This document shows positions 4,636 to 33,900 of a stretch of 64,000 bases of DNA, one piece after another. Source of the stretch: a virus; IMG/VR virus record IMGVR_UViG_3300032265_001317, positions 28,159 to 92,158 of that record, one strand, 5' to 3'. Every line of letters starts with the position of its first letter. Positions within the stretch are counted from its first letter, which is position 1. Made by a program: the position numbers and the translations under genes. The notes under the pieces are model-generated. The model did not search any database. It had not been told where the DNA came from and saw only the letters and a program-made list of their open reading frames with translations.

Positions 4636-4854
4636 TTGACTTTAACACTTGACGAAATCCAGGAAGTAGTTACAGAGTTAGAAAAAGAGTCAAAAGCCAT
4701 TAAAGAAGAAATTTACAAACTAGCCTGGTACATGCGCGGTGCTATTAGCATCACAGAAGCATACACACTTGACACTCAAGACAGAGAAATCTTGAACAAG
4801 ATTATCGTGGATAATTTACAGACTGCTAAAGAAACAGGGTTGCCGTTTTTTTAA
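4636..4854 (+). CDS. Small baseplate/tail chaperone (gp51-like); probably the frameshift extension of the upstream gene
   Basis: 72 aa, weak TTG start with no SD; LAWYMRGAISITEAYTL...R resembles gp51/gpGT-type C-terminal domains. Confidence 0.55.
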   Translation: MTLTLDEIQEVVTELEKESKAIKEEIYKLAWYMRGAISITEAYTLDTQDREILNKIIVDNLQTAKETGLPFF

Positions 4855-5975
4855 ATTTCAATACCCAAGAATCTACTTTGGTATCCGACACGACTTTCAC
4901 TTAACCCACCTTGGTGTAATTTTAAGTTAGGTTTTCCATCTGTACCAGTTGCCTGTGTTTGATCTGCTGGTTCGGCTTGCGATTGTGCTGGTTGTTCCTG
5001 TTCTGGGTGAATAGTATTAAAGTACCCTAATACTTTTTTAGCGTCATCAGATGAAAATGCCGCAACTACTTGATGTAAATCTAGCATAGACATCAATGCA
5101 CCACGTGCCATTTGATAATCTTGTTTCATGTGTGTCGGTATTGCCGCTACTTTTCCGGCGGCTGTTGCTAATGCACCCGGAGTGGCTTTAGCTATATCTG
5201 CGGCTTTGCTAGCACCTGTCTTTATACCTTGTACTGCTTGCGTACCTAGCTTACCGGCAATACGACCAGCTTTGGTCATTGTACCTGTATTAGGATTTTT
5301 AGAAAGATTGGTTGCTCTAGTTGGATCGTTGTACCCAAACTTGGCACCTTTTACAAAGTTACCAATACCTTTTTTAGCATTGCTGGCCATACCTTTGAGA
5401 TCAAATTCGTCAAGTTCTAGACTTTCTCCCATGGCCACTCGTTTCTGCAACATTGTTCTAACTCGTTCAACATCGTCGCCTTTTAGGTGTTGTAACGATG
5501 TTAATAAACTTTTATCGCTTAGTGGATTCGCTACTTCAGCTGATTTTGGTGCAGATACATCACCAGCATTGCCCATAGCGTTTGAACCCGATACAGCAGT
5601 GGAAGCACCTGTGTTATTATTTACAGCTGGAGTACCTGATACCGCCGGAGATGATCCTGTGTTATTTGGCACAGCAGTATTACCAGTTGCCGCTGTGTTA
5701 TTTGAATTATTATATGATTGTGACGAACTTCCGCCATCAAGCTGATCAGCTTGTGCTCTAAGTTTTTGTGCTTTGGCTTGATTAATAGCCTGTTTGCTGT
5801 CACCACTTACTGCACTTCTACCTGCGGTATATCCTTTACCAAATGCATCACCAGCGCCACGGATTCCACCTACTACAGCACCAGCACCTTTGGCTAGTCC
5901 TCCAGCAATAGAACCTATAGCACTTCCAATACCTTCTTCAGTATTGCTTTCTAAAATAATATCATTGATACGCAT
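4851..5975 (-). CDS. Low-complexity Gly/Ala-rich protein, putative internal head protein
   Basis: 374 aa; MRINDIILES N-terminus, several hydrophobic-x-E sites, internal repeats; TAAATA at 6004-6009 (minus) upstream. Confidence 0.5.
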   Translation of the reverse strand: MRINDIILESNTEEGIGSAIGSIAGGLAKGAGAVVGGIRGAGDAFGKGYTAGRSAVSGDSKQAINQAKAQKLRAQADQLDGGSSSQSYNNSNNTAATGNTAVPNNTGSSPAVSGTPAVNNNTGASTAVSGSNAMGNAGDVSAPKSAEVANPLSDKSLLTSLQHLKGDDVERVRTMLQKRVAMGESLELDEFDLKGMASNAKKGIGNFVKGAKFGYNDPTRATNLSKNPNTGTMTKAGRIAGKLGTQAVQGIKTGASKAADIAKATPGALATAAGKVAAIPTHMKQDYQMARGALMSMLDLHQVVAAFSSDDAKKVLGYFNTIHPEQEQPAQSQAEPADQTQATGTDGKPNLKLHQGGLSESRVGYQSRFLGIEI

Positions 5976-6016
5976 AAAAGGAATTCCTTGTCTTATTAAA
6001 TTTTATTTATGTTATG

Positions 6017-6036
6017 AAATGAGCTAACGCTCATTT
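6017..6036 (-). terminator. Hairpin, likely terminator or 3' end of the structured RNA
   Basis: Perfect 8-bp inverted repeat AAATGAGC-TAAC-GCTCATTT. Confidence 0.5.
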
Positions 6037-6452
6037 GCTATATCGCTTACGCTCATAGCATTTTATCTTCTTTAGAAGATTTAAGTATTATCCAGATTCC
6101 TTGGTCACACTTCGCCCTGCACCGGGCGAAAAAATGACATTATCCGAGTTCGAATAGTTCACACAGCGTTAGAGCATTACAGAGGCGGTCATCCGGTACC
6201 TCGAGCTCAGTCTTCATTGACGGCAGTTCATGTATATACGCTATCATACACATAAACCCAGGGTTTTTCTCCCTTCTTTTGGCCTTTTATTACATTTTCA
6301 AACAATCAAACCGCGGCAATTTTGCGATCCTCGTCCTGTAAAGGATAGTGATTGAGTACTCTTAACGGCGAGAGATTTCCGTCCCTGCGATCCGAGATCC
6401 AGGTTTAGAGCGCATGAAGTTGGCCTGCGCAAGCTGTTACCGTCTAGTGAGC
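6017..6452 (-). ncRNA. Putative large structured non-coding RNA (~440 nt), family unassigned
   Basis: Only long non-coding gap in the window, more GC-rich than its flanks, about ten nested stems; G-U pairs work on the minus strand only (14-bp stem at 6225-6258 with 4 G-U). Confidence 0.6.
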
Positions 6453-6881
6453 CTAAGTTTTTTTGATTATGTGTGAGCCATGTACACGGACTTGTATGTG
6501 TCCATTGTAGTATTCGTCGGATTCTAATACCTTGCGGTCGAATTGTTCTCGGGCCTCAATGTAAGATGTTTCTGATTTGCTAGTACAATAATATAATATT
6601 TCGCGGGTAAATTTATCTATGCCTAGTTGTGTGATGTCTGCTGTTAAGTTAGGACTGGACCCGTAATATTCCTGCCAGTCACTGTCGATTTTGCTTCGAA
6701 TTTTCTTTTTCTTCTTGGTGCCGTTCTTTAACTTTACAGTCTTGTAGGTCGTTTTACTAAACTTTGCTAATTTTTTGCCAATATATTTCCGCCCCGTAAC
6801 TGTGTTAGTAATAAGATAAACAAAACCAACACATGTTTCAGGTAACTCTGTAACTATAGCACCTTGATACAGCCAAGTCAA
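6453..6881 (-). CDS. GIY-YIG endonuclease (T4 endonuclease II/Seg-like)
   Basis: GFVYLITN...KYIGKK, YYGSS, conserved E (YIEAREQ) and N (YYNGHI); Lys-rich insertion. Confidence 0.8.
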   Translation of the reverse strand: MTWLYQGAIVTELPETCVGFVYLITNTVTGRKYIGKKLAKFSKTTYKTVKLKNGTKKKKKIRSKIDSDWQEYYGSSPNLTADITQLGIDKFTREILYYCTSKSETSYIEAREQFDRKVLESDEYYNGHIQVRVHGSHIIKKT

Positions 6882-7079
6882 TTACTTTGCTGCCTTGGCT
6901 TCCTTGCGGGCATTCTTTTCAGCTGTGATTTCGTTGCGACGAGCTTTGACTAGTTTGCCTAGTTCTGCTAATGCCTTGCGACTGCGTGTGCCAGCGGCAC
7001 TGTTACCACCGGTAAACTTAGCATCTTCTGCTAGGAATTCTGCAAAAGCGGCTTGTAGTTGTGTATTGGTATCATTCAT
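6882..7079 (-). CDS. Histone H1-like (Hc1-type) nucleoid protein
   Basis: GNSAAGTRSRKALAEL motif typical of the Hc1-like family; 65 aa, basic. Confidence 0.7.
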   Translation of the reverse strand: MNDTNTQLQAAFAEFLAEDAKFTGGNSAAGTRSRKALAELGKLVKARRNEITAEKNARKEAKAAK

Positions 7080-7380
7080 GTTTATTCTCTTTTTTATTAT
7101 GAACCCTGGGCGGTGAGTTTAATTTTCGAAGTGCAACAGTTTCTTTTTTTAAACGTCTGGCTTCGGCCCTTCCTTTTTTCTCAATTAGAAATAAATCCCA
7201 AACTAATGAGAGCATCTCTTTCTCTGTCTTTCTAAGTTCTCTCAACATCCTTCTAAGATCTTGAGCTCCTAGTTCTGTAGTTTTTTTTAAGAAATCTTGA
7301 TTCCTGTTATGATAGTTGGCAATGGTGGTAACCATGCTGTTGTATAATTCTTTATATCTTTCAAGTTCAGGATTCGACAT
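7072..7380 (-). CDS. Basic helical hypothetical protein, possible divergent Hc1 paralogue
   Basis: 102 aa, Lys/Arg-rich, overlaps both neighbours. Confidence 0.5.
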   Translation of the reverse strand: MSNPELERYKELYNSMVTTIANYHNRNQDFLKKTTELGAQDLRRMLRELRKTEKEMLSLVWDLFLIEKKGRAEARRLKKETVALRKLNSPPRVHNKKENKHE

Positions 7381-9151
7381 AATCTACATCATTACTATAG
7401 CTGGTAAACCCGTTTTCTTTTATTACTCTTAATACATTGTTTACTCTACCTACCAATTCGTCTTTGTGACTAATCAAGTATATATTCTTATTCCTCTCCC
7501 TGGCCATCTTTTTTAGGACCGCTAGGGCACTTTCAACACCGGCACTATCCATTCCAGCATCTACAAGTTCGTCGATAAACAATAGATTAATACTTTGGTA
7601 AAGTCCTTCCCATACATCTCGGAAAGCAAAACTCAAACTTAGAATCAATCTGTTACGTTCACCGCGTGATAAATTATCAAAATCTAAATCTTGTCCTAAT
7701 TGTGTAATCTCTACTGTTAAATCATTTTGGAAAACTACACGATGTGGTAAACCGAGTTTATCGATATAGTATCCGAGACGTTTATTCAAGTAGGTAAGAT
7801 TCTGATCGATAATTTTCTTGCGTATAAAACTGTCTTTGTTAGTCAGTAATTTATATAAGAATTCTTGATGATCTCTTAATTTTGAAAGCTCGTTGATCAG
7901 GTCCCAAGTTATTTCTTGTATAGCTGTTTTCTTTAATTCTTCGATTTGTTCTTCGAACGGATTGGACTTATTAATTTCGTTTGTAAGTTGCTTTTCCAAA
8001 CTATCTACATTATTTTTATGTCCCAGTGCTTCTGCTTCTGTATCGTAAAAGGTTGCAGGTCTCTTTGGTAATTCACCTATTTCTGCGATACTTTGATTAA
8101 TACCTGCTAGGTCGCTGGTTACTTTATCAAAGTATGTGACAGCATCAACAAGACTTTTTTCAGCCATAGCACTCATTTCTTCGTGCTTGTGATCGTGTAA
8201 AGATTGTTCACATGCTGGACAAGTTTTATCTTCTAGCTTTTCTAATTCTTTGGTATACTTGTTTACAGTTTTATCGGCTTGGCTTAATGCGGCTTCTAGT
8301 GTTGCTTTTTGCTTGCCTAGATTTTTTATTGCTGTATTATTATCTTCCCATTGCTTTAGAGACTGGTGAGATTCTAACTCTGCTGTAATATCGACTCCTT
8401 CAAGTTTCATTATAGCACGACCGAGATTTTCTATATCTTGATCTTTTTTACTTTCCCAAGCACTACTTTTAATGGTTAGACTATCAATACTTTTCTGTAC
8501 ATTCTCGTTAGCAGTTTTAACACTTTCAATTCTAAATTGTTCTTTTTGTATAGAGTCTTTGGTTTCTTTAACAAGTGCTTTAAGATTTTCTGCTTTTTCA
8601 CTAAGCATGGTAATACCTAGCAACTGCTCGATGATTTCGCGTTGTTCGGCCGCCTTCATTGACAGAAACGGCTCTGTATAGGTGTTTAACGCAACCAAGT
8701 GTTTAAACATGGTATGTGACATTTCTAGCATTTGCTCAATGGCTTTCTGCGTTTCTCTGCTGTCACCTTGACTATCATCTTCCTCTTTAGCGTCTTTTAA
8801 CTGCTCATCGTTAACAAATAATCTAAGTATATTGGGCTTACGACCACGTTCAATTCTGTATAGAATTCCGCCTTTTTCAAACTCTACTGTTACCAACATG
8901 GCCTTGCCGTTGGTTTTATTAATAAGGTTTTCCTTGCGGATATTGGTTAATGCTTGCCCGTATAGTGCATAGCTTAACGCATTGATAATTGTGGTTTTAC
9001 CTGTGCCATTACGAGACCCTGTGTCATCTCCTCCTAGATCTAGGTTAGCACCTAGCACAAGTGTTAGGTGCTCTTTATCAAAGTCTACTGCTTGGGTTTG
9101 ATTACCTACACTTAGAAAGTTTTTTACTGTTATATTTTTTAATTTAAACAT
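7367..9151 (-). CDS. Recombination endonuclease ATPase subunit (T4 gp46 / SbcC / Rad50-like)
   Basis: Walker A RNGTGKTT, coiled coil with CPAC zinc hook, LSRGE signature, LLFIDE Walker B, ISH motif. Confidence 0.95.
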   Translation of the reverse strand: MFKLKNITVKNFLSVGNQTQAVDFDKEHLTLVLGANLDLGGDDTGSRNGTGKTTIINALSYALYGQALTNIRKENLINKTNGKAMLVTVEFEKGGILYRIERGRKPNILRLFVNDEQLKDAKEEDDSQGDSRETQKAIEQMLEMSHTMFKHLVALNTYTEPFLSMKAAEQREIIEQLLGITMLSEKAENLKALVKETKDSIQKEQFRIESVKTANENVQKSIDSLTIKSSAWESKKDQDIENLGRAIMKLEGVDITAELESHQSLKQWEDNNTAIKNLGKQKATLEAALSQADKTVNKYTKELEKLEDKTCPACEQSLHDHKHEEMSAMAEKSLVDAVTYFDKVTSDLAGINQSIAEIGELPKRPATFYDTEAEALGHKNNVDSLEKQLTNEINKSNPFEEQIEELKKTAIQEITWDLINELSKLRDHQEFLYKLLTNKDSFIRKKIIDQNLTYLNKRLGYYIDKLGLPHRVVFQNDLTVEITQLGQDLDFDNLSRGERNRLILSLSFAFRDVWEGLYQSINLLFIDELVDAGMDSAGVESALAVLKKMARERNKNIYLISHKDELVGRVNNVLRVIKENGFTSYSNDVDYVES

Positions 9152-10164
9152 TAGATATTTCTATAAATTTCAAGTAGCATTGCTTTGTCAAACTGTTCCG
9201 ACTCAATATTAACCAATTGTTCTGAAACAATTTGATCAACACTTTCGAACTGCTGATCTGGATTATCGTCTACTGTGCCTTCAAGGTTAGTTTTATCTTG
9301 TATAAGACTGATCTCTCTGATGTCGTATTCGTTGACGAATGTTTCTTTGATAAAATTTGCCTCTTCATAACTGATGTCAATGTCAAGATGCACTTTTAAA
9401 TGCATCTTGCTTTTCATGATTGAGTCTTTTTTGTCAATAAGGTCGCTAAGTTTAACAGTACGATACTTGGGAGCATCTGGCCAGTTAATAAATTCCGGCT
9501 CACCTCCCCATTCTAATGTCATCATACCTCTATCATCATCCCATGCATCAGAGAAGTTGTGAGGAAACGCATTTCCTATATAGATTACCTTTTGATTGGA
9601 TTGGCGTTTGTGAAAGTGCCCGCTGAACACATAGTCAGGAACCGTAAAGTCCTCAGCATGCAATTCTCCATGATCTGGCATCTGCACCATTGCGTTCATA
9701 AAGAATTTAGGCAATTCAAAATGCCCAAACACATACTTGCTTTTGATCCCACTCATGACCTTCCATTCATCACCTACTAACCAAGGTACAAGGGTAACAT
9801 CACCCCGGGTCATAATACTGTCTACAACAGTGACGCCTGGAACGTGCCTACCAAAAGTACTCGAGTGAATGTCACGCTTGTCTTTATAAAATAAATCGTG
9901 GTTACCAGGAAACCAATAAAAGTTTTCAAATGCCGCGCCCAGTTTTTCAAGGCATCGCAAGCTGGAATCTAATGTTATAAGATTTAGACTGTTACGGTTG
10001 TGGCTCCAGTCACCTAAAAATATACCAGTTTCGCAACCTGCGGCCTTGGCTTCGGCAATGTACCAATCTACAAATTCTTCGCAGTCTTTAAGATGTGCAG
10101 TTGAGTTGCCTTTTAGGCCAAAATGTATATCAGTAAAACATGCTACCTTTTTAAACAAGGTCAT
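9151..10164 (-). CDS. Recombination endonuclease nuclease subunit (T4 gp47 / SbcD / Mre11-like)
   Basis: Metallophosphoesterase motifs DIHFG, GD, GNHD, GHF, SGHFH. Confidence 0.95.
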   Translation of the reverse strand: MTLFKKVACFTDIHFGLKGNSTAHLKDCEEFVDWYIAEAKAAGCETGIFLGDWSHNRNSLNLITLDSSLRCLEKLGAAFENFYWFPGNHDLFYKDKRDIHSSTFGRHVPGVTVVDSIMTRGDVTLVPWLVGDEWKVMSGIKSKYVFGHFELPKFFMNAMVQMPDHGELHAEDFTVPDYVFSGHFHKRQSNQKVIYIGNAFPHNFSDAWDDDRGMMTLEWGGEPEFINWPDAPKYRTVKLSDLIDKKDSIMKSKMHLKVHLDIDISYEEANFIKETFVNEYDIREISLIQDKTNLEGTVDDNPDQQFESVDQIVSEQLVNIESEQFDKAMLLEIYRNI

Positions 10165-21998: not shown

Positions 21999-24900
21999 AT
22001 GGCTAATTCAATCAAAACAATTAATTTGTTGCCCGAGTTTTTAAGAACAGATAAAAATAGCAAATTTTTATCTAGCACTGTTGACCAATGGATTAAAAAA
22101 CCAGAACTAGAACGTATTGATGGATACGTGGGATCTACATTGACTCCTACTTACAATTCTACTGCCGATGTTTATATTTCAGAATCGTTGCCTTTAAGAA
22201 AACAATATCAACTTGAACCTGCGGTTGTAATAAAAGATAATCAAAGTATTGTAACTGGTGCAGTAGCCATTGACGACCTTGTTAACGAAATTTCTATCAA
22301 AGGTGGACAAACAGGAAATTTTGACAAACTATTTAGAAGTGAATTTTATTCGTACGATCCGCATATTGATTTGGATAAGCTAGTTAACTATACTGAATAT
22401 TATTGGTTAACAACTGGTCCAAATACTGTTGTTATAAGTGGACAACCTACAAATACAACAAGTACGTTTACCGTGGTTGATAATGAAGTTAAATCTGCAT
22501 TTATTTTTACACCTAACGGACTAACACCAAACCCGATTGTTACCTTGTATAGAGGAAATACATATAATTTTGAAATAAGTTCAGTATATAAATTTTATGT
22601 AAAAACTGATTCATCATCTGGTCCTTTTGGTTTGTTAACTAGAAATATAACAAATAACGGAATTACAACTGGCACTATTACATTAACGGTTGATCAATAC
22701 ACTCCTGAAACTTTATATTATATTTCTGAAACAGATGACAAGGTACAAGGACAATTTGTTATTAAAGATTCTACACAAAATTCGATAATTGATGTAGAAA
22801 AAGAAGTTATTGGGAAAAAGAGTTATAGATCAGGAACCGGAATTGAATTATCAAACGGAATGAAAGTTCGTTTTGGTGGAACGGTTATCCCTGAATCATA
22901 TCAAAATAAAGAATACTGGGTAGAAGGTGTTGGTGAATCTATTAGCTTGATAGATTATGAATTATTATCATCCCCTGAGGCAATGGCCAGTGTATTTGAC
23001 GAAAACTTTGATGCTACTGGATTTGACGATTATCCGTTTGATAATTTTAAAACACTGCCGATTACCCCCGAGTATATTACTATTAATCGTGCCAGTAAAG
23101 ATTTAAATCCATGGTCTAGATACAATCGATGGGTTCATTCGGATGTAATTAGAATTAGTGCAGAAGCATCTGGGCAAGATCCGGTATATTCAGTTAACCT
23201 TAGGGCAAAACGTCCTATTATTGAATTTAAAGCAGATTTAAAATTATATAATTTTGGAACAACTGGTGCAACAAACGTTGACCTAATTGACAATGTGACG
23301 CACGATGCATTTTCAGCTGTCGAAGGATCTGCTGGATATTATGTTGACGGACTTTTATTACAACAAGGGCAACGAATTATATTCAATGCAGATACTGATT
23401 CAACTGTAAGAGAAAAAATCTACGAAGTAAATTATGTTACTGTTAACGGATATAAATCAAGATTACAATTAGTTCCTGTAACCACAAGCATTTCCGGATG
23501 TTCTGTTTCTGTAAATTACGGAAATGATTTTGCAGGTACTGCATGGTGGTACAACGGATCTAATTGGGTATATGCTCAACAACATAACAAACTTAATCAA
23601 GCTCCTTTATTTGATTTATTTGACAAAAATGGTTATAGTTACAGCGATACCACTGCTTATCAAAGTAATTTTAGTGGAACTAAAATATTTGGTTACGAAG
23701 TAGGTACCAACGGTGCTAATGATGCTGTATTAGGGTTTCCTTTAAAATATAAAAATAGTGTAGGCGTTGGTAGCTATCTTTTTAAAAATTATTTTACTAC
23801 AGATCAAATTTCTGTTTCAGTTAATAACGTTGAAACTATTAGTGTATCAGCAGGGCAAACATTTTTAAAATTTGCTCACGCCGCAGGCGATGTATATTCA
23901 AATGTATGGACAGCCACTGAGCCATATCCTATTCCGTTGAACGCAAATGGATATTATGATACACCTTTAGGACTTACAAATAATCCACTAAACGGACCTA
24001 TTTCTAATTTTACTCTAAGTGAAATCAGCGATCATCTTGGAACTGCTGTTGCTAGATTGCCTAACTTTGTAGGAGCATTCCCAGGAGTTAGTAATTTACG
24101 TGACAGGCCAGATGTTGCTAGATATGCCAGCAGATTAATTTCAAATGCAAATCCTATGGCATTTGCACATTTGTTTATTGGTAAAAAAGAACACAGCATC
24201 GTTGATGCAGTTACAAAAGTAGGCGACCAATACAATCAATTTAAAATGTCATTTTTGAATAAAATGATATCAGTTGGAAATCTTAACAATCCAATTGCAT
24301 CAGTTGATACAATTTTAGCAGAATTAAATTTAGGAAAAAATTTACAATCTCCTTATTTCTTATCTGATATGATTGCCTATGGCAATGACAAAGTAACCAG
24401 ACAATGGACTGTAAAAAATATTAGAAATACAGTCTACCCTATTTCTGCTGACTTTGATCCTGTTGCTTTAGGTTTAAGATCGGTACTAGTTTATTTGAAT
24501 GGATCTCAACTGGTATTAGGGCAAGATTATAATTTTATTACCAACGATTCATCAATAGAAATTTTAACCACATTAATGCTGGGCGATGTAATTACAGTTA
24601 ATGATTATGCTACAACCGAAGGGTGCTTTGTACCGCCTACTCCGACCAAACTTGGATTATATCCTAAATTTAAACCAGCAAAATACATTGACGATACCTA
24701 TGCTACACCGACACCTGTAATCCAGTGCCACGATGGTAGCATAATGGTTGCCTATAACGATTTTAGAGATGACATTGTTCTTGAATTAGAAAAACGAATT
24801 TACAATAATATTAAGGCAGTATATCAAACAGAACTATTTGATATTAATTCTGTAATACCCGGCGCATTCAGAAATAGTGAGTATACATTAGCCGACTGTA

Positions 24901-27900
24901 ATTCTATATTAATTAACGATTTTATTAAATGGTCTGGTTTTTATGGAATTGAGTACACAGAAAATTCTACCTTCGATCCAGACAATTCTTTCACATGGAA
25001 TTATTCTGGTAGTACCAACAAGTTATTATCTATACAAGTTGATGGAAACTGGAGAGCAGTTTATAAATTCTTCTACGATACTGATCGCCCTCACACCGCA
25101 CCGTGGGAAATGCTAGGATTAACTGCTATGCCTGATTGGTGGGAGTCGTTGTATGGTCCTGCCCCGTATACCAACGGTAACTTATTATTATGGGAAGATT
25201 TAGAAAAAGGATTAATAAAATATCCTAGCGGTTGGGTACGTGATCCTATATATGCTAGACCCGATTTGAGAAATATTATACCGGTAGACGAAGGCGGCAA
25301 TTTACTTGATCCTACGGTATTATTAAGTGAGTACACACCATACAGTGTTAGACAAAATTGGAAATTTGGTGACCTAGGACCTGCAGAAACAGCATGGCGC
25401 CGTAGTAGCCATTGGCCTTTTGCGTTACAAAAATTATTAGCATTATTAAAACCTGCTAGCTATGCATCATTAATGTATGATCCTAGTAGGATGACACAAA
25501 ATAAAGCAGGACAGTGGTCGTACGATATTGCCGGGTCTTTCTTAAATCCTAAAAATGTAAAAATATTTGATACACTTACTACTTTAACAAGCGGTTATAG
25601 CGTATTACTTGTTGAATCAGGTAAACAGAGATCTGTTAATTACGTCAACGAGTTAACACAAGATTTAAATTTTTTCGATATTAATTTATTTCACAAAGTA
25701 GGCGGATTTGTCAACAAGGGAAATTTACAAATTGTTATCGATGCATACGAGCCAACCAGCACTGGCCCGGGTGCATTGCTTCCTCAAGAAAATTATCAAT
25801 TATATCTTAATACCAGTAACCCAGTTAATACAACAAGTATTTCTGGTTTAATTATACAAAAAGTCGACGGCAAATTTGTTATAAAAGGGTATGACAAGTA
25901 TCGTCCTTACTTCACAGTATATACTCCTGTAAGAAATAGTTCAACTCCAACATTAAGTGTTGGAGGAATCAGTTCACCATATATAAATTGGTCTGCTGGT
26001 ACAGCCGATGCAGGAGCATCTAATCTTAATTCGATAGATCTTACAACAGCCAATAGCTCTCCTGTTGGCAAGTTTTATAAAACAGGACAGATTGTTAACT
26101 ACGGTAATAGATATTATATAGTAATTAAAGATCACTATGCTGAGAGTGTGTTCAATGTAGCTTATTATCAGTCACTTCCATCGTTGCCTATCTCGGGAGG
26201 CGCAACAGTTCAAACATATTATAAGTTTGACAAGGTAGGAGTAAGAATTCCTTATGGAACACAGTTTGATAACATACAACAAGTGTATGATTTTATTGTT
26301 GGCTACGGCGACTGGTTGTCAGATCAGGGATTTATTTTTAATCAATATAATTCAACTTTAAATTCTGTATTAGATTGGAATTTCACTGCTAAAGAATTTT
26401 TATATTGGACTACACAAAATTGGGCCAATAATAGTATTATTGCTCTTAGCCCGTTTGCGGATCAACTTCAATTTAAATTTAGCAATAGTGTTGTAGATAA
26501 TATTTTTGATAGTTTTTATGATTACGGAATTTTAAAAGAAAATGGTCTCGAATTTCCTAAAAATAATTTAAATATCGGCAGGGACGAAGGTGTTTGTACT
26601 ATTAGATCTATAAACACCACAGAAGGAATTTATTTTGCACAATTAAATTCTGTACAAAAAGAACACGCCATGGTGTTTGATAACACCACAGTTTTCAACG
26701 ATACTATCTATGACATTGAAACTGGATATCGTCAACGCCGCGTAAAATTAATTGGGTTTAGAACTGCCAACTGGAATGGAGATTATTTCACTCCTGGATT
26801 TGTGTACGACACAGCTCAAATATCTACCTGGGCCCAATTTACTGATTACAAATACGGCGAAGTTGTAAGATTTAACAGCAAATATTATTCAGCAATACAA
26901 GATGTTATTGGATCCAGTAAATTTGATTTTACTAAATGGGTGTTACTCGGAAGCAAGCCTGTAGCAGAATTAATTCCTAACTTTGATTACAAAATTAATC
27001 AGTTTGAAGATTTTTATAGTCTTGACATTGACAACTTTGACAGTAACCAACAAGAGCTTGCACAGCACTTGGTTGGATATACACCACGAGTATATCTAAA
27101 TAATATCTTTATTAATCCTATTGCACAATATAAATTCTATCAAGGATTTATTAAAGAAAAAGGATCAAAAAATTCTATTATCAAATTAAGTAAAGCCAGT
27201 ATACAAAATCAGCAAGGATCAATTTCTTTTAATGAAGAATGGGCATTTAGAGTTGGTAGTTATGGTTCTTACGAAACGTACAACGAAATAGAAACTACTC
27301 TACATGAAGGAAGTTTCAAATCAAATCCTCAGGCAATTAACTTTGTAGATACTGTGCCAGTAGTTCCTGATGATTTATTATTGTATAAAACTCCTGGCAA
27401 TTTAGCTATAGTTCCTGATGATTATGTTCCTTCTAGCACGTTTGTAACAACATCAACTTCTAATTTTGAATTAATGACAGCGGGCTATGTAAATCTAAAC
27501 GATGTTACATCTACTGCTTATAATGAAGATAGTTTTATTGCCATTGCCAATACTCGTGCATTAAACGATGGTGAAGTTATATGGCTAGGAAATACCAATA
27601 ATGGTGATTGGGATGTTCGTAGATATCAAAGATCTACAGCCGGTATTATTTCCGTACAGATATATAATCCTGCAGAAAGTATTTCTTTCTCAACTGATGT
27701 TCCACACGAATTGAGCATAGGAGAAATTATTTCTGTATCTCAATATGACGACCAAGTCAATGGGGTATATCGAGTAATTGACATATTGTCAAGAACAGAG
27801 TTTGTTGTATCTTCTACACTTTCTTTTATTACTACATTTACTACAGATTCTCCAGGTCTGTTATTCAGCTTCAAAAGTGTTAGATATAGTAATTTTGATT

Positions 27901-30900
27901 CTATACCTTTGGATCAAGAATTACAAGAATTGCCATATGGAGCTAAATTCTGGATTGACAATGACATTTCTAGCAGTTGGAAAGTTTATGAAAAAATTGA
28001 CAATTATTCAATAACACATATTACAACCAATACCAGTGGATCATACTACGGTGCAACAATATACAAAAACAAAGGCGAGAACATAGTAATTGAAGCATCT
28101 CCGTATTATTCTTCTCCAAGTAGATTTGACATAGGTACAATATTTGTCAAGTATATTGATCTTGATGGATATATTTTTAATTATAATATTAATCAAGCAT
28201 CTTATAATCAATACTATACAGGTACAGTACATACTGAGTTTGGAGCATCTGTTGTATATGACAGTCAAGAATATAACAATACAGGCTTTGGGTTGTTCTA
28301 TGCAGGAGCTCCTGGCACTAGCGGAATTAAATCTTCAAGTAGCCCAACAGGTCTTAGATATGCATCGGCGGCCGGAACTGCATCTTCACGTGTTCATGAA
28401 GGTTTAGTAAAAATCAGTAGCGTTGACCCATTGTTGTTTACAGAATTTACAGAACATGTGTTGTTAAGTCCTGCACCGGCCAGTTATGATCGTTTTGGAC
28501 AATCAATATTTGTACAAACTAGTAACACATCTACTAAATCTCTGTTGGTAGGTGCCCCAGGTAACAACGGAGTGCTTGCCGGCGCAGTACATTTATATAA
28601 TATTTCGTTGAATACTACTACTAATATTACTTTCAACAGAAGTATCAGTCCTCTGGTTTACTGGCTTGGCGGCGAATGGGGCTACAGCATATCTGGTTTA
28701 TCAAACGCTAGCACAGTTGCGATTAGTGCTCCTAGTTACCAACAAGGTGTAGGTTATGTTGCAATATTAACTGGTACAAATTATACCAATCTTTCTCAAA
28801 TAATTTTTGGTAACACAGCCGGCCTTGATAAAAAAAGTAGATTTGGCGACAAGGTAATATTGTCCAATGATGGTACATATCTATTTGCTACAGCGCCAGG
28901 ATTTATTAATTTTGATAATTCAAAAGGAGCTGTCGCAGTATTTAAATCTGTAAATGGTGCATTTGAATTTAAACAATTAATTACTAATCCAGTAGCAGGG
29001 CCTGGAATGACTTTTGGACAAGACATTGATATCGGTACCATGTCTGACAAGTTAATTGTATCTGCACTAGGAACTGATAGAATTGATAGATCTTTTGATA
29101 ACAAGCTAGCAGACAATACAACGTTTGATAGTAAGACTACAATATTTGAAGATAGCATGACAAAATCTGGATGCGTTTTTGTATATGATAGATACAATGA
29201 ACGTTTTGTTTTTGCACAAGAAATTAATCCTGGAAATTTAACAACAGCTACCAACTTTGGTCAAAGTATAGTGTTAGATGACACTGATGTTTTAATTGGT
29301 GCTCCTAATATTAACATCACAGCTGATGGACAAACTGATTATAGTGCAACATACAGATACAGTAAAATTGATCCGTTAGCAGACAGTTGGAAAATATTAA
29401 GACAATTTGATAATCTAGTGGACGTCAATACTTTACAAAAAGTTAGATTGATCGATACTTCTAATGATACTGTTGTTACATACCTTGATGTTATTGATCC
29501 ATTAAAAGGAAAAATTTCAGGAATTGCCGACGAAGAAATACGCTATAAAACATCAGTTGATCCTGCCATCTATTCTATTGGTACTACATCTACCACTGTA
29601 TTGCAAGATACAAATTGGACCGATATCCAGGTTGGTGAACTATGGTGGGATTTATCAACTGTTAAGTATGTCTGGTACGAACAAGGCGACTTGAATTATA
29701 GAAAAAATAATTGGGGAATGTTATTTCCTGGATCAAGCATTGATATTTACGAATGGGTAGAATCAACATATCTACCAAGCGAGTGGGCCGCGTTAGCAGA
29801 TACTGCTAACGGCATTGCTAAGGGAATTAGTGGACAACCAAAGTTTCCTGATAACACTGTATTATCTGTAAAACAAGGTTACGATTCAGTTTCAAATTCT
29901 TTTACTAACATTTACTATTTCTGGGTAAAAAATAAAGTATTGGTTCCTGAGACTAAAAACAGAAGAATGTCTTCATACGATGTTGCATCTCTAATAAATG
30001 ATCCTTCGTATAACGGATCAATGTATGCCGCTATTATTTCTGGCAATGGTGTAATGTTATCGGATGTTGCATCTGAATTAGTTGGCGACCGTATTAATTT
30101 AAATATTGCATTTGACAATATAAAAAATCAAATACCGAGACATACTGAATGGTTGTTAATTGAAGAAAATTCTGTAACATCAGCTCCTAATACGTTGTTA
30201 GAGAAAAAATTAATTGACAGTTTACTTGGACATGATTCTCTTGGTAATGCTGTACCCGATCCTGCATTATCAAGCAGAGTTCGTTATGGAATAGGTATTA
30301 GACCACAGCAAACCTTGTTTAAAGATAGACTAGGTGCCTTGAGAAATCTAGTTGAATTTTCAAATTCTGTCTTGAAAGAAAATATCATTACAGGTCGCTA
30401 TAATTTTTCTAATTTAAATGCTCAGGAAAGTATTCCTGATCAATATTCACACGAGTATGATCGTATTGTTGAAGACAACTATACCTTAGAAACAATTGAT
30501 ACTAGAAAGCTATCTCAGGCAAAATTAACAGCACAAATATATGACGGTAGAGTAATTGGGGTTACAATTGATAATCCAGGATTTGGTTATATCATAAGTC
30601 CTACAGTAACAGTTACCGGTAACTGCATTTCAAGTGCAGTAATTACTACTGCTATTGATTCCAGTGGACGAGTAATATCAGTTGACATTGTTGATGCCGG
30701 AAACGGATATTCTGCAACACCTACATTAGAAGTAAGACCTTTTACTGTTATAGTTTTAGCAGATAGCATTTACAATGGCAAATGGTCAAAATTTGTATGG
30801 AAAAGCGAACTTGCACTATTTGTTAGATCTCATACACAAAAATATAATACATCTCTGTACTGGAACAAGGTTGACTGGACAAGTGCCGATTACAATCAAT

Positions 30901-33900
30901 ATCAAGATTATTTGTTTACAGTTGATGCGGTATACGGAATTTACACATTGTCAAATGTTGCAGTGGGCGAATATGTCAAAGTTAAAAACAGCGGCGACGG
31001 CAATTATATCATACTAGAAAAAATGCCTACTGGCTCAGTGGGTACGTTTGGCAATGATTACAATATTGTTTATAAACAAAATGGAACAATACAAATATCT
31101 GATGCAGTATGGAATACAGCTAATAGTACCTATGGTTTTGATCAGATATCGAGCTTTGACCAAACATTGTATGATCAGACTCCTGATTTAGAATTGCAAT
31201 ATTTGTTATCTGCATTAAAGAATGATATTTTTATAAATGAGCTAAAAGTTAATTGGAATAAATTCTTTTTCAAAGCAGTAAAATATGCAATGTCCGAACA
31301 AAAATTACTAGACTGGGCATTTAAAACTTCATTTATTAATGTTATTAATAATGCAGGTGCGTTGGATCAACGTCCTGTTTATAAACTTCAAAACACACAA
31401 TATTTTGAAGATTACATTAGCGAAGTAAAACCTTACCATAGTCAAATACGTTCGTTCACAACGCAATACGATAATCTAGATCAATCACACAGTTATACAA
31501 CTGACTTTGATTTGCCTACACATTATAATGGCGACACAGGAATTTTTACTTCTATAACCGCAGACAGTACATTAACCAATGTATACCCATGGAAGTCATG
31601 GAGCGATAACAGAACATTTACTGTAGGAAGTATTGTGGTTGGTAATCCGGGCGCAGGATACACCATATCGCCCACTGTTGAAATTACTGCACAACCGGGC
31701 GATCTTGGAACAGGTGCGACCGCTGTTGCATACATACGTTCTGGAGAGATAATTTCTATAGAAGTTACTAATCCTGGTAGCGGATATTTGGTTCCGCCAA
31801 TAGTTAGTATCAAGGGCGGAGGCAGCACAACCTTAACACCTGCTAGAGCCTATGCACAACTCTATAATGGTAAAGTACGTTCAAATACTATTGAAATGAA
31901 ATTCGATCGTATTAATCGTTCTAATCAGATTGGAGATATACGAGTTTCTGATTCCTTTATCTGTAACGGAATACAAAACGAATGGACACTCGGTTGGTTA
32001 GCTGATGCAAACAAATTGGATATCACAGTTACCCTTGATAAAATACGTGTGCTAAGTGCAGATTACACCATAACTTATTACACAGAAAAATACAATGGTT
32101 ATAATAAAAAATATTGCAAAATTGTTTTCTTAAATTATATTCCAAAAAATAATCAAATACTTTCAGTATCTTACAGAAAATCTAAAAATCTGTTCACGGC
32201 ATTAGAAAGAATTGAAAATTATTATGAACCAACAAGCGGAATGCCTGGAAAAGTTCCAGCTCAGTTAATGAGCGGGTTAGAATATCCTAGAACACAAATT
32301 CAAGGGTTAGGCTTAACTGCAACTACACATTGGGACGTATTGTTTGGAACAAATGTATATTCTGGCTTTGGTGATGCATCTTATGCAGATGATATTTCTT
32401 ATTATACCACAGTTTCTTTAACTGGCACAGCACCTGCTGGTACCAGTACTGTATCGGTTAGCACAACTACAGGATTAATGGTTGGACAGTTTGCAAATAT
32501 TATCAGTAATACTGTAAATCAGTTCAGTACCTCAACTGTGAAAATAAAGTCAATTGATACAGCCGGCTCTAGTGTAACATTTAATTCAACTATTATTAAC
32601 ACATTGACTAACGCCACAATTGAATTATGGACATATGATCAAAATTCAACAACATTAGATACAGCTATTGATGGCGGCAATTTAATATACAATACTGCCT
32701 TGGGAATCAATCCAGACGAAATTGTTATTGATGGCGACAAATTTTATACTCCTAGTACTGGATTTGCTCCTGAAGAGTTATTAGACGGACAGGTAACTGA
32801 AAGTCTTGGTATCAATGTATATACAAAAAATGCCAACGGTGCTCCTTTAATTTTTTCTAGCTCTTTTGATATAGATGCAAATGTTCAAGTTGTAGAATCT
32901 TTAACTATGATTCCGACTACAGTTAATAGCATTACTGTGAGTTTTAATAATAGGGTATTTGCTTATAACTCTACCACAAACTTTATGTCAACTTCGGAGT
33001 TTAATATAGATTGGGGAACTGGTTCTATTATTCTTCCTCCTCAATCGATTGGTGGAAAAGTATCTTATAGAATCATTGGTATCGGTGGAGGCAACCCAGA
33101 TGCATTTGCCGGTGTTATCGATTATCAAATACTTTCTGAGCACGATGAAGCCGTTGGTACTGTGGTAAGTTTATCGGGTATTAATACTGTAAAGAGTGCG
33201 TTTGTTACCGTGGATGGTATCGCTATCAGTACAGGAACTACTGGTTTATATTATACATTAGGACCAGATAGTCTTTTAAACGAAAGAGCCGCAGTAACAG
33301 TATATAATTTGCCAAGCGGTGCAAATACAATACAAGCATGGTTCTTTGGAACTGATGTCAATTATTATAATGAATTAGAAGAGCAAATATTTACTGTTGG
33401 TGTTGGGTTGCCTGTAACTTCTTTTGTTCTTACAAACCCGCCAAATGTAATACATCCTGCTGATGCAGAAGTTCTTGTAGAAATCAAAGACGGCGCTGGC
33501 CGCCGTCAATTGCTACCACCTTATATCAGTTATTATCAAGTTACCAATACCAACGATAGAACATTTACTATTGATAATCATGTATTACGTCCACCTTCGA
33601 CTTACAACTTGAATACAGTTAGAGTATATCGTAATGGAGAAGTGTTGTTACCTGGCTTTGATTTTAATGTCAATGTTAACGACAATACTGTTACTGTATA
33701 TCCAAATATTTTAGCAGTGGGTGATGCTATTGCTGTATTAGGATTGGTACCGGGTGATTATGATTATGACATTGTTGGAAATATTTTAAATGTTCCACTA
33801 CAGTCTGGTCAAGGCGTGTTGAATGCCGAAATAAAAATTATTACCTATAACGATCAAGATGGAATGCTGATTCAGGCAGAAAGATTTCCTGGAAATGCCA

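What the first reader, a model, noticed from the sequence alone, without database searches (positions are those of the whole stretch)
6017..6452. ~440-nt densely structured non-coding element starting right at the GIY-YIG stop codon
Seen, reading the minus strand: GCGCA/UGCGC; CCUG-GAUC-UCG-GAUC-G-CAGG; a CAAUCA/UGAUUG multiloop enclosing UCCU/AGGA and GAUCGC/GCGGUU; GGG-AGAAAAA-CCC; a 14-bp stem with 4 G-U pairs (6225-6258); nested GAGC/GCUC, GAGG/CCUC and CGG/CCG; GUCA...UUCGCCC-GGUGCA-GGGCGAA...UGAC flanked by two GGAUAAU copies; UCUUCU/AGAAGA; UGCUAU/AUAGCA; and a terminal hairpin. Two GACGG segments could pair with two GCCGU[UC] segments (long-range or pseudoknot). The G-U asymmetry points to an RNA co-oriented with the nuclease gene. 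It is the only large gap in a very compact genome, and I cannot match it to tRNA, tmRNA, RNase P or group I/II cores. Inference: an uncharacterised large phage ncRNA.
Basis: partly seen in the sequence, partly recalled or inferred. Interest (0 to 1): 0.8.

Follow-up and report, generated by a model that had tools for sequence, protein, structure and literature searches.

The report
Full-length Polynucleobacter-1 twin-box phage RNA
The gap behind the small nuclease gene of this uncultured giant T4-like freshwater phage encodes a real, about 430-base, multiply knotted non-coding RNA; its first third is an orphan motif catalogued in 2010, the rest is uncatalogued, and its function is still unknown.

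Summary
Window 6015-6445 (minus strand) is a conserved, covarying, strand-specific structured RNA, not chance hairpins. It is not wholly new. Positions 6300-6435 match Rfam RF01718 (Polynucleobacter-1, 121 bits), a motif of unknown function. The other ~290 nt are uncatalogued: three pseudoknots, a central core, and two identical 7-nt boxes (GGAUAAU) that change in step across relatives. This scan has met the same RNA many times on other DNA.

The RNA is an autonomous module rather than the GIY-YIG nuclease's private cofactor:
- Sister phages carry it behind an unrelated PD-(D/E)xK nuclease.
- Polynucleobacter and Limnohabitans islands carry it without either of these nucleases, between a DUF6641 gene and a mini tyrosine recombinase. 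In sister islands that slot usually holds a putative HUH Rep-like gene.
- Cultured T4-like phages have the GIY-YIG gene without the RNA.

No partner for the twin boxes was found in the RNA, the neighbouring genes or complete phage genomes.

Best reading: a trans-acting RNA that reads a nucleic-acid partner with two identical short strands, probably in replication or recombination of mobile genomes. That role is inferred, not shown.

Verdict: a new variant (full-length form) of a known orphan RNA family.

The parts
6015..6445 (-). Full conserved structured RNA (about 430 nt): 5' leader, Polynucleobacter-1 domain, central pseudoknotted domain, twin-box domain and 3' hairpins
   Evidence: Extent of conservation in about 150 of 185 relatives. 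Covariation over 110 pairs.
6300..6435 (-). 5' domain, Rfam RF01718 Polynucleobacter-1. Helices 6410-6430, 6384-6403, 6359-6374, and 6303-6354 enclosing 6332-6348 and 6309-6329
   Evidence: cmscan 121.2 bits, model positions 1-141 of 141, E 8e-26. Helices 2-11 are 76-96% paired with changes on both sides.
6439..6443 (-). 5' leader strand (ACGGU) of pseudoknot A. It pairs with loop 6365-6369 (GCCGU) and lies outside the Rfam model
   Evidence: Helix 1: 91% paired; pair types GC30/AU23/GU11/UA7 and GC47/AU19.
6164..6284 (-). Central domain: helices 6282-6284/6222-6224, 6271-6274/6260-6263, the 12-pair stem 6226-6257, 6205-6208/6172-6175, 6199-6202/6182-6185 and 6193-6195/6186-6188. Pseudoknot B is 6218-6220 with 6189-6191. 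Pseudoknot C is loop 6239-6243 with 6164-6168. The nearly invariant GGUACCGG..ACCGCC core lies here
   Evidence: Pseudoknot B: UA57/CG36 and GC49/AU31. Pseudoknot C: CG67/UA24, GC73/AU15, GC80/UA9. A sub-threshold resemblance to RF02947 cow-rumen-2 (20 bits) lies at 6162-6257.
6139..6145 (-). Twin box 1 (GGAUAAU), in the frame GAACUC-N7-G
   Evidence: Identical to box 2 in 68 of 69 parsed non-redundant relatives, with 11 variants. Mutual information with box 2 is close to the column entropy (0.99 of 1.06). No other column exceeds 0.4.
6087..6093 (-). Twin box 2 (GGAUAAU), in the frame GAAUCU-N7-A
   Evidence: The same frame and twin identity, with other box sequences, occur in bacterial copies.
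6104..6138 (-). Hairpin between the boxes: GUCA/UGAC plus UUCGCCC/GGGCGAA
   Evidence: Covarying pairs, for example 6128-6113 with UA45/AU11/CG8.
6017..6079 (-). 3' hairpins: 6066-6079 (variable); 6037-6059 (UGCUAU/AUAGCA, tandem G-A, GC-GUAA-GC GNRA loop); 6017-6036 (terminal hairpin)
   Evidence: The 6037-6059 hairpin, with its GAGCG..GCGA loop, recurs in bacterial copies. No canonical terminator was called.
6453..6881 (-). 142-aa GIY-YIG protein consisting of the catalytic domain only. It is the conserved upstream neighbour
   Evidence: PF19835 SegE_GIY-YIG covers residues 3-129, E 2e-32, with no second domain. It matches only the first 86 of 215 positions of the group I intron endonuclease model.
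6882..10164 (-). Upstream operon: gp47-like phosphoesterase (9151-10164), gp46-like SMC ATPase (7367-9151), a 102-aa ORF (7072-7380) and an Hc1-like protein (6882-7079)
   Evidence: Pfam. The gp46-like gene lies upstream in 180 of 201 related loci.

Best explanation
SHOWN
- Window 6015-6445 (minus strand) is the gene of an approximately 430-nt RNA with about 17 helices and 3 pseudoknots. It is the full-length form of the orphan Polynucleobacter-1 family.
- It sits as the last unit of the gp47-gp46-...-GIY-YIG gene string of a roughly 345-kb T4-like freshwater phage.
- It is one copy per genome in the one complete relative where RF01718 detects it.
- It is a self-contained module. The same architecture (5' domain, ACCGCC core, hairpin framed by two identical 7-nt boxes, GNRA-capped 3' hairpin) occurs in three settings: behind a GIY-YIG gene, behind an unrelated PD-(D/E)xK nuclease gene, and without either of these nucleases on small mobile islands of Polynucleobacter and Limnohabitans.

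INFERRED
- The RNA acts in trans.
- Its two boxes, held single-stranded in the conserved frames GAAYYY-N7-R on either side of a hairpin, are its specificity element. They are read by one kind of partner present twice (two molecules, two sites or a dimer), most simply by base pairing.

MORE WEAKLY INFERRED (about 0.3)
- The partner is DNA or RNA handled during replication or recombination of the mobile genome.
- Every neighbourhood is made of DNA cutting, joining or initiating enzymes: SbcCD-like gp46/47, small nucleases, a tyrosine recombinase, and a slot that usually holds an HUH Rep-like gene.

The GIY-YIG gene is a conserved neighbour and a probable source of transcription, not an obligate protein partner.
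For: RNA reality and family:
- RF01718 at 121 bits.
- Strand-specific folding.
- Covariation 0.284 against 0.139 for shuffles and about 0.065 for slid partners; 97 of 110 pairs change on both sides.

Extent: about 150 of 185 loci are conserved over 6452-6072.

Twin boxes:
- Identical in 68 of 69 relatives, 11 variants among them and 12 across all loci.
- Box-to-box mutual information is close to the entropy.
- Nothing in the RNA or in 1.1 kb upstream, including the GIY-YIG ORF, comes near that value.
- The same frames and twin identity, with quite different box sequences (AGCGAAA, AUCGAAA, AACAAAA...), occur in bacteria.

Autonomy:
- 14 bacterial loci hold full RF01718 matches (74-104 bits) with no GIY-YIG.
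- 13 of 121 Polynucleobacter species carry it, in 1-2 copies at varied chromosomal places.
- All 10 chromosomal loci examined read DUF6641 (divergent) - RNA - ~190-aa tyrosine recombinase.
- Among phage loci with PD-(D/E)xK homologues, 29 of 78 match the core pattern (27 of 74 where enough downstream DNA was held). About 23 of the other 47 have an ORF-free gap of 340 nt or more; the three read hold a divergent copy. None carries a GIY-YIG gene.
- GIY-YIG homologues occur as a single copy in 331 cultured T4-like phages. Melnitz, phiN3 and S-SRM01 have no RNA behind the gene.
- A classical GIY-YIG+NUMOD3 homing endonuclease (L118) or a 337-aa ORF (L069) can sit between the GIY-YIG gene and the RNA.

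DNA-transaction context:
- The gp46-like gene is upstream in 180 of 201 loci.
- In 6 of 10 RNA-less islands examined, the slot holds one protein family with HxH and YxxK motifs, weak PF23343 Rep hits, and AAV Rep as the only fold match at Z 8 or more (Z 8.3, rmsd 3.6, 126 aligned residues).
Against: - No transcript data, so trans action and even expression are inferred.
- No partner for the boxes was found. There is no excess of the complementary 7-mer within 1.5 kb or in the 92-kb record. There is no dyad arrangement in complete 345-kb genomes beyond chance. A 6-mer G-U-tolerant scan gave only a U/G-rich, non-specific hotspot.
- Rare relatives have boxes that differ at position 1 (L120, L295/L297), so identity is not absolute.
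- The slot in the islands also holds unrelated cargo (a TPR protein and others). Sharing a slot with a Rep-like gene therefore does not prove a like function.
- Cumulative GC skew turns at about 11-12 kb, where gene orientation changes, not at the RNA.
- Two unrelated small nucleases at the same place directly in front of the RNA keep a nuclease link alive.
Confidence: 0.5

Rival explanations
1. Nuclease-RNA particle. The RNA is the targeting or scaffolding subunit of the small nuclease encoded just upstream, which has a catalytic domain only. The twin boxes act as guides, in the manner of TnpB/IscB omega RNAs.
For: - The RNA starts about 10 nt after the stop codon of a 142-aa GIY-YIG protein with no DNA-binding domain.
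- 114 of 120 contigs found by the RNA pattern have that gene directly upstream. Five of the other six are cut at the locus edge.
- In a sister lineage an unrelated small PD-(D/E)xK nuclease takes exactly that place.
Against: - Bacterial copies have neither the GIY-YIG nor the PD-(D/E)xK gene.
- GIY-YIG homologues in cultured phages lack the RNA.
- No column of the GIY-YIG ORF covaries with the boxes: maximum mutual information 0.14 for box position 1, whose entropy is 1.0.
- The boxes are internal, not at an RNA end abutting variable flank DNA.
- No matching sites were found.
- Other genes can be inserted between the nuclease gene and the RNA.
Confidence: 0.12
2. Replication-initiation RNA. 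This would be a structured pre-primer or origin transcript, like ColE1 RNA II or the T4 R-loop origins. The phage and the excised islands would use it in place of a protein initiator.
For: - On the islands the RNA occupies the slot that in most sister islands holds a putative HUH Rep-like gene.
- The phage copy lies in the gp46/47 recombination-replication gene string.
- It is single copy in the one complete genome where RF01718 detects it.
Against:
- There is no GC-skew turn at the RNA.
- A primer model gives no reason for two identical boxes.
- The Rep assignment itself is only moderately supported: Pfam hits are below cut-off, Foldseek gives E > 0.01, and VIA gives Z 8.3.
Confidence: 0.15
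3. Conflict RNA. This would be a defence or counter-defence cargo, acting as a decoy, sponge or antitoxin-like RNA. The twin boxes would be two identical binding or cleavage sites for a sequence-specific factor. It would be exchanged between phages and defence-type islands of their hosts.
For: - It is shared only between lytic giant phages and sporadic mobile islands of likely hosts.
- The island slot is variable cargo space.
- Lineage-specific, fast-changing boxes fit an arms race.
Against: - No known defence family was tested or found beside it.
- Phage boxes and island boxes never matched in the samples seen.
- The RNA is far more complex than known decoys or type III antitoxins and has no tandem repeat units.
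Confidence: 0.15
4. A conserved RNA gene serving merely as a landing pad for homing endonuclease genes. The nucleases in front of it would be selfish genes that recognise this highly conserved sequence, and the adjacency would carry no functional meaning. This says nothing about what the RNA does and is compatible with the best explanation.
For: - Three nuclease types are found at the same junction: the minimal GIY-YIG, the PD-(D/E)xK, and the GIY-YIG+NUMOD3 in L118.
- Conserved RNA genes are classic homing targets (general knowledge).
Against: - The minimal GIY-YIG gene is nearly universal rather than sporadic: more than 589 contigs and 331 cultured phages, one copy each.
- It lacks a DNA-binding domain.
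- It diverges at about the pace of the gp46-like gene: 75-86% against 79-83% identity.
Confidence: 0.2
5. A DNA-level element. This would be a structured single-stranded DNA origin, or iteron-like repeats read by a protein, rather than an RNA.
For: - The twin boxes are direct repeats about 5 helical turns apart beside a hairpin, like the iterons of Rep-dependent origins.
- Sister islands carry an HUH Rep-like gene.
Against: - The structure is strand-specific, with many conserved G-U pairs, three pseudoknots, a GNRA loop and tandem G-A pairs over 430 nt.
- RNA-bearing islands and complete phage genomes have no such Rep gene nearby, and the phage genomes have no recombinase.
- No nearby protein covaries with the boxes.
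Confidence: 0.04

Closest known systems
Polynucleobacter-1 RNA motif (Rfam RF01718; Weinberg et al. 2010, Genome Biol 11:R31, PMC2864571)
   Same: Positions 6300-6435 match the whole 141-position model at 121 bits. The family was noted to lie downstream of one gene family with possible homology to a cyanophage gene, and to occur in fresh water and Burkholderiales. All of this fits here.
   Different: The catalogued motif is only the 5' third. Not in the model are the leader pseudoknot, the central pseudoknotted core, the twin boxes and the 3' hairpins, about 290 nt in all. About 10 of 105 relatives replace the RF01718 domain with another 5' domain but keep the rest, so the uncatalogued part is the more constant one. 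In 2010 no purified phage carried it. Here it is a standard gene of roughly 345-kb phage genomes.
cow-rumen-2 RNA motif (Rfam RF02947)
   Same: Weak likeness to the central domain 6162-6257: a long hairpin with a UAGC loop, GCCGYCA, and AC.GGAUGACCG..C..GUAA.
   Different: Only 20 bits against a cut-off of 66, E 0.47. This is a lead, not membership.
Omega RNAs of TnpB/IscB (including the former HEARO motif)
   Same: A large structured RNA that begins at the end of, and is co-oriented with, a small nuclease gene on a mobile genome.
   Different: The nuclease is not obligate and comes in two unrelated folds. There is no terminal guide abutting variable flank DNA. The nuclease family is GIY-YIG or PD-(D/E)xK, not RuvC/HNH.
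IS110/IS1111 bridge (seek) RNAs
   Same: An RNA beside a recombinase gene on bacterial islands, with two internal short segments that must carry the same sequence.
   Different: The recombinase here is a tyrosine enzyme, not DEDD. It occurs without the RNA in 16 of 18 sampled relatives, and the RNA label needs at least 3-5 changes on its tree. No box-matching element ends were found.
ColE1 RNA II and T4 origin transcripts
   Same: A long folded transcript that could stand in for a protein initiator. It occupies the slot of a Rep-like gene.
   Different: No origin is mapped, there is no sequence likeness, and the twin boxes have no counterpart.
Large phage-associated orphan RNAs (GOLLD, ROOL)
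   Same: Size, pseudoknots, occurrence in phages and mobile DNA, unknown function.
   Different: No Rfam match to them. No tRNA genes in the 92-kb record.

Membership tests
Rfam RF01718 Polynucleobacter-1 | Covariance-model score at or above the gathering cut-off (37 bits) over the whole model | tested here: met
   121.2 bits, model positions 1-141 of 141, at 6300-6435 on the minus strand.
Rfam RF01718 Polynucleobacter-1 | The model's helices are kept by compensatory changes in relatives | tested here: met
   Helices 2-11 are 76-96% paired, and most pairs change on both sides.
Rfam RF01718 Polynucleobacter-1 | Lies downstream of the GOS11034 / P-SSM2 PSSM2_218-like gene (supplement of PMC2864571) | tested here: inconclusive
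   It lies downstream of a GIY-YIG gene whose homologues are in 283 cyanophage records. Whether that gene is the GOS11034/PSSM2_218 family was not checked directly.
Rfam RF02947 cow-rumen-2 | Score at or above 66 bits | tested here: not met
   20.2 bits, E 0.47.
Nuclease guide RNA (TnpB/IscB omega RNA type) | RNA and nuclease gene are always found together | tested here: not met
   The RNA occurs without the GIY-YIG or PD-(D/E)xK gene in 14 bacterial loci and 10 of 10 Polynucleobacter loci. The nuclease gene occurs without the RNA in Melnitz, phiN3 and S-SRM01.
Nuclease guide RNA (TnpB/IscB omega RNA type) | A variable guide at one RNA end that matches flanking or target DNA | tested here: not met
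   The variable boxes are internal. No complementary sites lie within 1.5 kb, in the 92-kb record, or as dyads in complete genomes.
Group I / group II intron | Match to intron core models; a host gene split into exons | tested here: not met
   No intron family appears among cmscan matches up to E 10 in 5800-6700. The flanking ORFs are complete.
IS110-type bridge RNA | Obligate pairing with its recombinase, and loops complementary to element ends and target | tested here: not met
   Recombinase relatives mostly lack the RNA. Complete phage genomes have no recombinase. No box matches lie at island junctions.
Type III toxin-antitoxin RNA | Tandem repeats of a 34-45-nt unit followed by an endoribonuclease toxin gene | tested here: not met
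   Only the 7-nt boxes, with 5-6 nt of similar frame, are repeated. No toxin-type gene follows.
ColE1-type primer RNA | 3' end at a mapped origin, with RNase H processing | not testable with these tools
   Needs replication-start and RNA-end mapping. GC skew gives no support.

The most novel reading that the evidence does not exclude
The RNA is a bivalent nucleic-acid reader. Its two identical 7-nt strands pair with the same short sequence on two DNA (or RNA) molecules or sites, and so bring them together or mark them for whichever cutting, joining or initiating enzyme the mobile genome supplies (GIY-YIG, PD-(D/E)xK, tyrosine recombinase). On the islands it would replace a protein HUH initiator. 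That would be an RNA-programmed step of replication or recombination with interchangeable protein effectors.
Probability: 0.08. Interest if true: 0.9.

Novelty: new variant of a known kind. Interest (0 to 1): 0.55.

Why it matters
Large RNAs with many pseudoknots and no known job are rare. Past examples turned out to be ribozymes or guides (HEARO became the IscB omega RNA).

This RNA is common: hundreds of giant freshwater phage contigs, and about one in ten Polynucleobacter species sampled. It is three times longer than its database entry.

It also carries an unusual evolutionary signal. Two sequences are kept identical rather than complementary, which points to a partner that must be read twice.

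Knowing that it is a portable module found beside nucleases, a recombinase and a Rep-like slot narrows the search for its role and suggests direct experiments. If it proved to programme DNA transactions, it would be a new class of RNA-directed system. If not, it is still a well-defined target for structural and functional RNA work, and the Rfam model should be extended.

Tried and rejected
- **Close relatives in cultured phages:** BLASTN of 5900-6900 against 50,697 phage records gave nothing. No cultured phage carries a close copy.
- **tRNA or tmRNA:** none in the window or in the 92-kb record.
- **Promoter and terminator scans:** no terminator. Three sigma-70-like sites, no more than chance.
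- **Partner of the twin boxes inside the RNA:** mutual-information scan negative.
- **Partner in the GIY-YIG ORF or 1.1 kb upstream:** negative.
- **Exact complementary 7-mers within 1.5 kb of 171 loci:** no excess.
- **Box 7-mer in the 92-kb record:** 7 and 6 occurrences of the box and its complement, against a mean of 6.3.
- **6-mers with G-U allowed:** only a U/G-rich, non-specific hotspot at 6305-6325.
- **Dyad ATTATCY..RGATAAT in four records, two of them 99-100% complete:** at chance level.
- **RNA-guided tyrosine recombinase:** set aside. 16 of 18 sampled recombinase relatives lack the RNA, and RNA-linked ones are scattered on the tree.
- **A 'third box' downstream in L216/L207:** it is a constant hairpin loop, not box-related.
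- **DUF6641 likeness to the phage 102-aa ORF:** none. No DUF6641 or integrase gene in the window's own record or in two complete phage genomes.
- **Small-ORF reading of box 1 (AUG..UGA):** the frame is not kept in relatives (seen in the sequences).
- **PDB sequence searches:** nothing useful for the GIY-YIG protein or the slot protein profile. Foldseek on the slot protein model gave E > 0.01.
- **My first twin-box regular expression:** faulty, and replaced.
Full report
**What is there**

The region between the stop codon of a 142-aa GIY-YIG ORF (6453-6881, minus strand) and the next ORF (start at 5975) has no ORF of note. It is the largest gap in the window.

An Rfam scan of the whole window gives one hit: RF01718, Polynucleobacter-1, at 6300-6435 on the minus strand. 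It scores 121.2 bits against a cut-off of 37 and covers the full model. A permissive scan of 5800-6700 adds only sub-threshold matches. The best of these is cow-rumen-2 at 20 bits over 6162-6257.

The minus strand folds far better than its shuffles (z -3.15). The plus strand does not (z -1.04).

The only paper in the library that names the motif is its 2010 description. The supplement says the motif lies mostly downstream of one gene family with possible homology to a cyanophage gene, that its 3' half is not always detected, and that no purified phage carried it.

**Genome**

The window is part of a 92-kb IMG/VR record, estimated 26% complete. It carries T4-type genes: a baseplate protein, a gp47-like phosphoesterase and a gp46-like SMC ATPase. 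Relatives include complete records of 345-347 kb. This is a giant T4-like freshwater phage.

**Extent and conservation**

The GIY-YIG protein hits at least 589.

Of the 120 contigs found by the RNA pattern, 114 have the GIY-YIG gene directly upstream on the same strand. Five of the other six are cut at the locus edge. The sixth is discussed below.

The 700 nt behind the stop codon are conserved at the DNA level in about 150 of 185 loci from 6452 to about 6072, and in about 60 loci down to about 6012. Conservation then collapses. The conserved unit is therefore about 430 nt, three times the length of the Rfam model.

**Structure**

I worked from 105 sequences less than 93% identical to each other.

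A search of all column pairs added three pseudoknots and two extra pairs:
- Leader 6439-6443 with loop 6365-6369.
- 6218-6220 with loop 6189-6191.
- Loop 6239-6243 with 6164-6168.

The formal count on alignment A1 (104 sequences, 110 pairs) is:

| Measure | Observed | Control |
|---|---|---|
| Cells paired | 82.9% | 71.9% in shuffles (0/500 as high) |
| Cells changed on both sides | 1169 | 388 |
| Covariation score | 0.284 | 0.139 shuffled; 0.06-0.07 with slid partners |

Three helices score poorly in that MAFFT alignment: the GC-rich hairpin between the boxes, the variable 6066-6079 hairpin and the terminal hairpin. They look better in the local-pair alignment, so alignment error contributes.

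Conserved G-U pairs tie the fold to the minus strand. The 6037-6059 hairpin reads as stem, tandem G-A, then GC-GUAA-GC. That is a GNRA-capped RNA hairpin.

**Twin boxes**

Box 1 (6139-6145) and box 2 (6087-6093) are both GGAUAAU.

- In 68 of 69 parsed non-redundant relatives the two boxes are identical, with 11 variants.
- A pattern that requires identity finds them in 171 of about 200 loci, with 12 variants.
- Mutual information between matching box positions nearly equals the column entropy. No other column of the RNA comes close.
- Neither does any column of the 1.1 kb upstream, which includes the GIY-YIG ORF.
- The boxes sit in two similar conserved frames, GAACUC-N7-G and GAAUCU-N7-A.

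Rare exceptions differ at position 1: L120, and L295/L297.

I found no partner. The tests covered nearby DNA, the 92-kb record, and dyads in complete genomes.

**Is it the nuclease's RNA?**

Several results argue against it.

1. A scan of one genome per prokaryotic species found 16 hits. Two short contigs look like phage DNA. The other 14 (Limnohabitans sp. Bal53 twice, a Polynucleobacter meluiroseus MAG, Comamonadaceae, Aquabacterium and others) have full RF01718 matches but no GIY-YIG gene. They still have a long 3' extension with the ACCGCC core, the framed twin boxes with other sequences, and the GAGCG..GCGA hairpin.
2. In Polynucleobacter, 13 of 121 species genomes carry it, some twice, at different chromosomal places.
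3. All ten chromosomal loci examined read: DUF6641 gene (divergent) - RNA - about 190-aa tyrosine recombinase made of the catalytic domain only.
4. GIY-YIG homologues (38-52% identity) are single-copy genes of 331 cultured T4-like phages. In Melnitz, phiN3 and S-SRM01 no such RNA follows the gene.
5. Other genes can be inserted between the GIY-YIG gene and the RNA: a classical GIY-YIG+NUMOD3 homing endonuclease in L118, and a 337-aa ORF in L069.

One result points the other way. The exceptional contig L072 has a 171-aa PD-(D/E)xK endonuclease (PF24608) in the GIY-YIG position, between the gp46-like gene and the RNA.

- Of 78 relatives of that protein, 29 match the RNA core pattern right behind the gene, 27 of 74 where enough downstream DNA was held.
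- About 23 of the other 47 have an ORF-free gap of at least 340 nt, and the three I read hold a divergent copy.
- None has a GIY-YIG gene.

So in phages a small nuclease of either fold precedes the RNA. This may mean a nuclease function is needed in the gp47-gp46 gene string. It may mean repeated homing-endonuclease invasion next to a conserved RNA gene. Less likely, it means a real partnership.

**Is it the recombinase's RNA?**

The size of the boxes (7 nt) and the need for identity recalled the crossover region of tyrosine recombinases, so I tested this.

- In a sample of 301 Burkholderiales genomes, 13 have recombinase relatives. Only 2 of 18 loci have the RNA within 1.5 kb.
- On a maximum-likelihood tree the RNA label needs 5 changes, of which at least 3 are forced by well-supported branches.
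- Two complete phage genomes have no tyrosine recombinase and no DUF6641 gene. RF01718 finds one copy in G424 and none in G423, whose locus L143 keeps the core and twin boxes behind a variant 5' domain.

The recombinase is therefore the island's own integrase, not a partner of the RNA.

**The slot**

In 25 DUF6641 loci, 3 have the RNA next to the gene. In the others the same place holds an ORF of 130-220 aa.

Six of ten such ORFs form one family. Its features:
- Conserved HxH and YxxK motifs (A2).
- Weak PF23343 Rep hits, E 3e-4 and 1e-3, below the cut-off.
- A confident model (pLDDT 82.8) whose only structural match at Z 8 or more is the AAV5 Rep nuclease domain (Z 8.3, rmsd 3.6, 126 aligned residues). 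Other HUH proteins follow at Z 6-7 among generic ferredoxin-like folds.
- Foldseek alone was not significant.

I read this family as a probable HUH Rep-like endonuclease, with moderate confidence. The remaining slot ORFs are unrelated (a TPR protein and others). Earlier notes of this scan report a HEPN-like cargo there, which I did not re-test.

The RNA thus sits in variable cargo space that most often holds a putative replication initiator. That is suggestive for a replication role but does not prove one. GC skew gives no support.

**Conclusion**

The element is a real RNA gene and a full-length member of an extended Polynucleobacter-1 family. The uncatalogued central and twin-box domains are its most constant parts.

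It is a portable module shared by giant T4-like phages and small integrative islands of freshwater Burkholderiales. It always lies among genes for DNA cutting, joining or initiation.

Its mechanism is not shown. The simplest reading of the identity-type covariation is a trans partner read twice by base pairing. The rivals, in my order of weight:
1. A role in replication start.
2. A conflict (defence or counter-defence) RNA.
3. A nuclease particle.
4. A DNA-level element.

The view that the RNA gene is merely a landing pad for homing endonucleases can hold alongside any of these.

This scan has reported the same RNA on many other genomes. My tests agree with those notes on its reality, extent, twin boxes and island context. 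New to the notes I was shown, as far as I can tell, are four results:
- The PD-(D/E)xK replacement lineage.
- The recombinase tree.
- GIY-YIG without the RNA in cultured phages.
- The HUH Rep-like occupant of the slot.

Noticed in passing
window 21999-35123 (+): A single ORF of 4374 aa, flanked by ORFs of 1221 and 947 aa. This is a giant protein of unknown role in this phage.
   Followed up: no
window 6882-7079 (-): A 65-aa protein matching the chlamydial histone H1-like Hc1 family (PF07432, E 2e-12) lies directly upstream of the GIY-YIG gene. Homologues are present in 63 related loci.
   Followed up: partly
window 6853-6881 (-): A sigma-70-like site, TTGACT-17-TATAGT with an upstream TG (10 of 12 matches), overlaps the putative TTG start of the GIY-YIG ORF. 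The true start, or an internal promoter, is uncertain.
   Followed up: no
window 4851-5975 (-): The downstream 374-aa protein is glycine/alanine/serine-rich and of low complexity, with no Pfam family. Only its first ~60 residues are conserved in some relatives.
   Followed up: partly
L118:1291-2109 (-) and L069:12889-13902 (+): Extra genes are inserted between the minimal GIY-YIG gene and the RNA. One is a classical GIY-YIG+NUMOD3 homing endonuclease (L118). The other is a 337-aa ORF without a family (L069).
   Followed up: partly
L072:4127-4642 (+); L290-L367: A phage lineage has a 171-aa PD-(D/E)xK endonuclease (PF24608) in the place of the GIY-YIG gene, between the gp46-like gene and the RNA.
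   Followed up: yes
L270:813-1469 (-), L272:878-1381 (-), L282, L280, L268, L275 (alignment A2): An undescribed family of 167-218-aa proteins with HxH and YxxK motifs lies between DUF6641 and the mini tyrosine recombinase on Burkholderiales islands. The best fold match is AAV Rep (Z 8.3). It is probably an HUH endonuclease.
   Followed up: partly
L204:3772-3953, L214:4489-4734: These copies of the RNA gene are truncated after about 180 and 245 nt. They are in Limnohabitans sp. Bal53 and a Comamonadaceae MAG and are followed by unrelated DNA. They may be recombination scars inside the RNA gene.
   Followed up: no
L120; L295 and L297: Rare relatives have twin boxes that differ at position 1: AUAUAAU against AGAUAAU, and GGAUGAU against AGAUGAU.
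   Followed up: no
L143, L147, L154, L160, L162, L178, L187, L196, L197, L200, L320: A subfamily replaces the RF01718 5' domain with a different structured 5' domain but keeps the core and the twin boxes. Rfam does not detect these copies (G423).
   Followed up: partly
L242 (G001:C1:63000-79000): The Polynucleobacter island around the RNA also carries a small AAA ATPase, a DUF6339 protein and several ORFs without a family. Sister islands share about 6.5 kb.
   Followed up: partly
window 6311, 6327, 6333 (-): Position 6311 (G/A) covaries both with 6327 (mostly U) and with 6333 (C/U; CG39/UA33). This hints at a base triple or two alternative pairings in the RF01718 domain.
   Followed up: no
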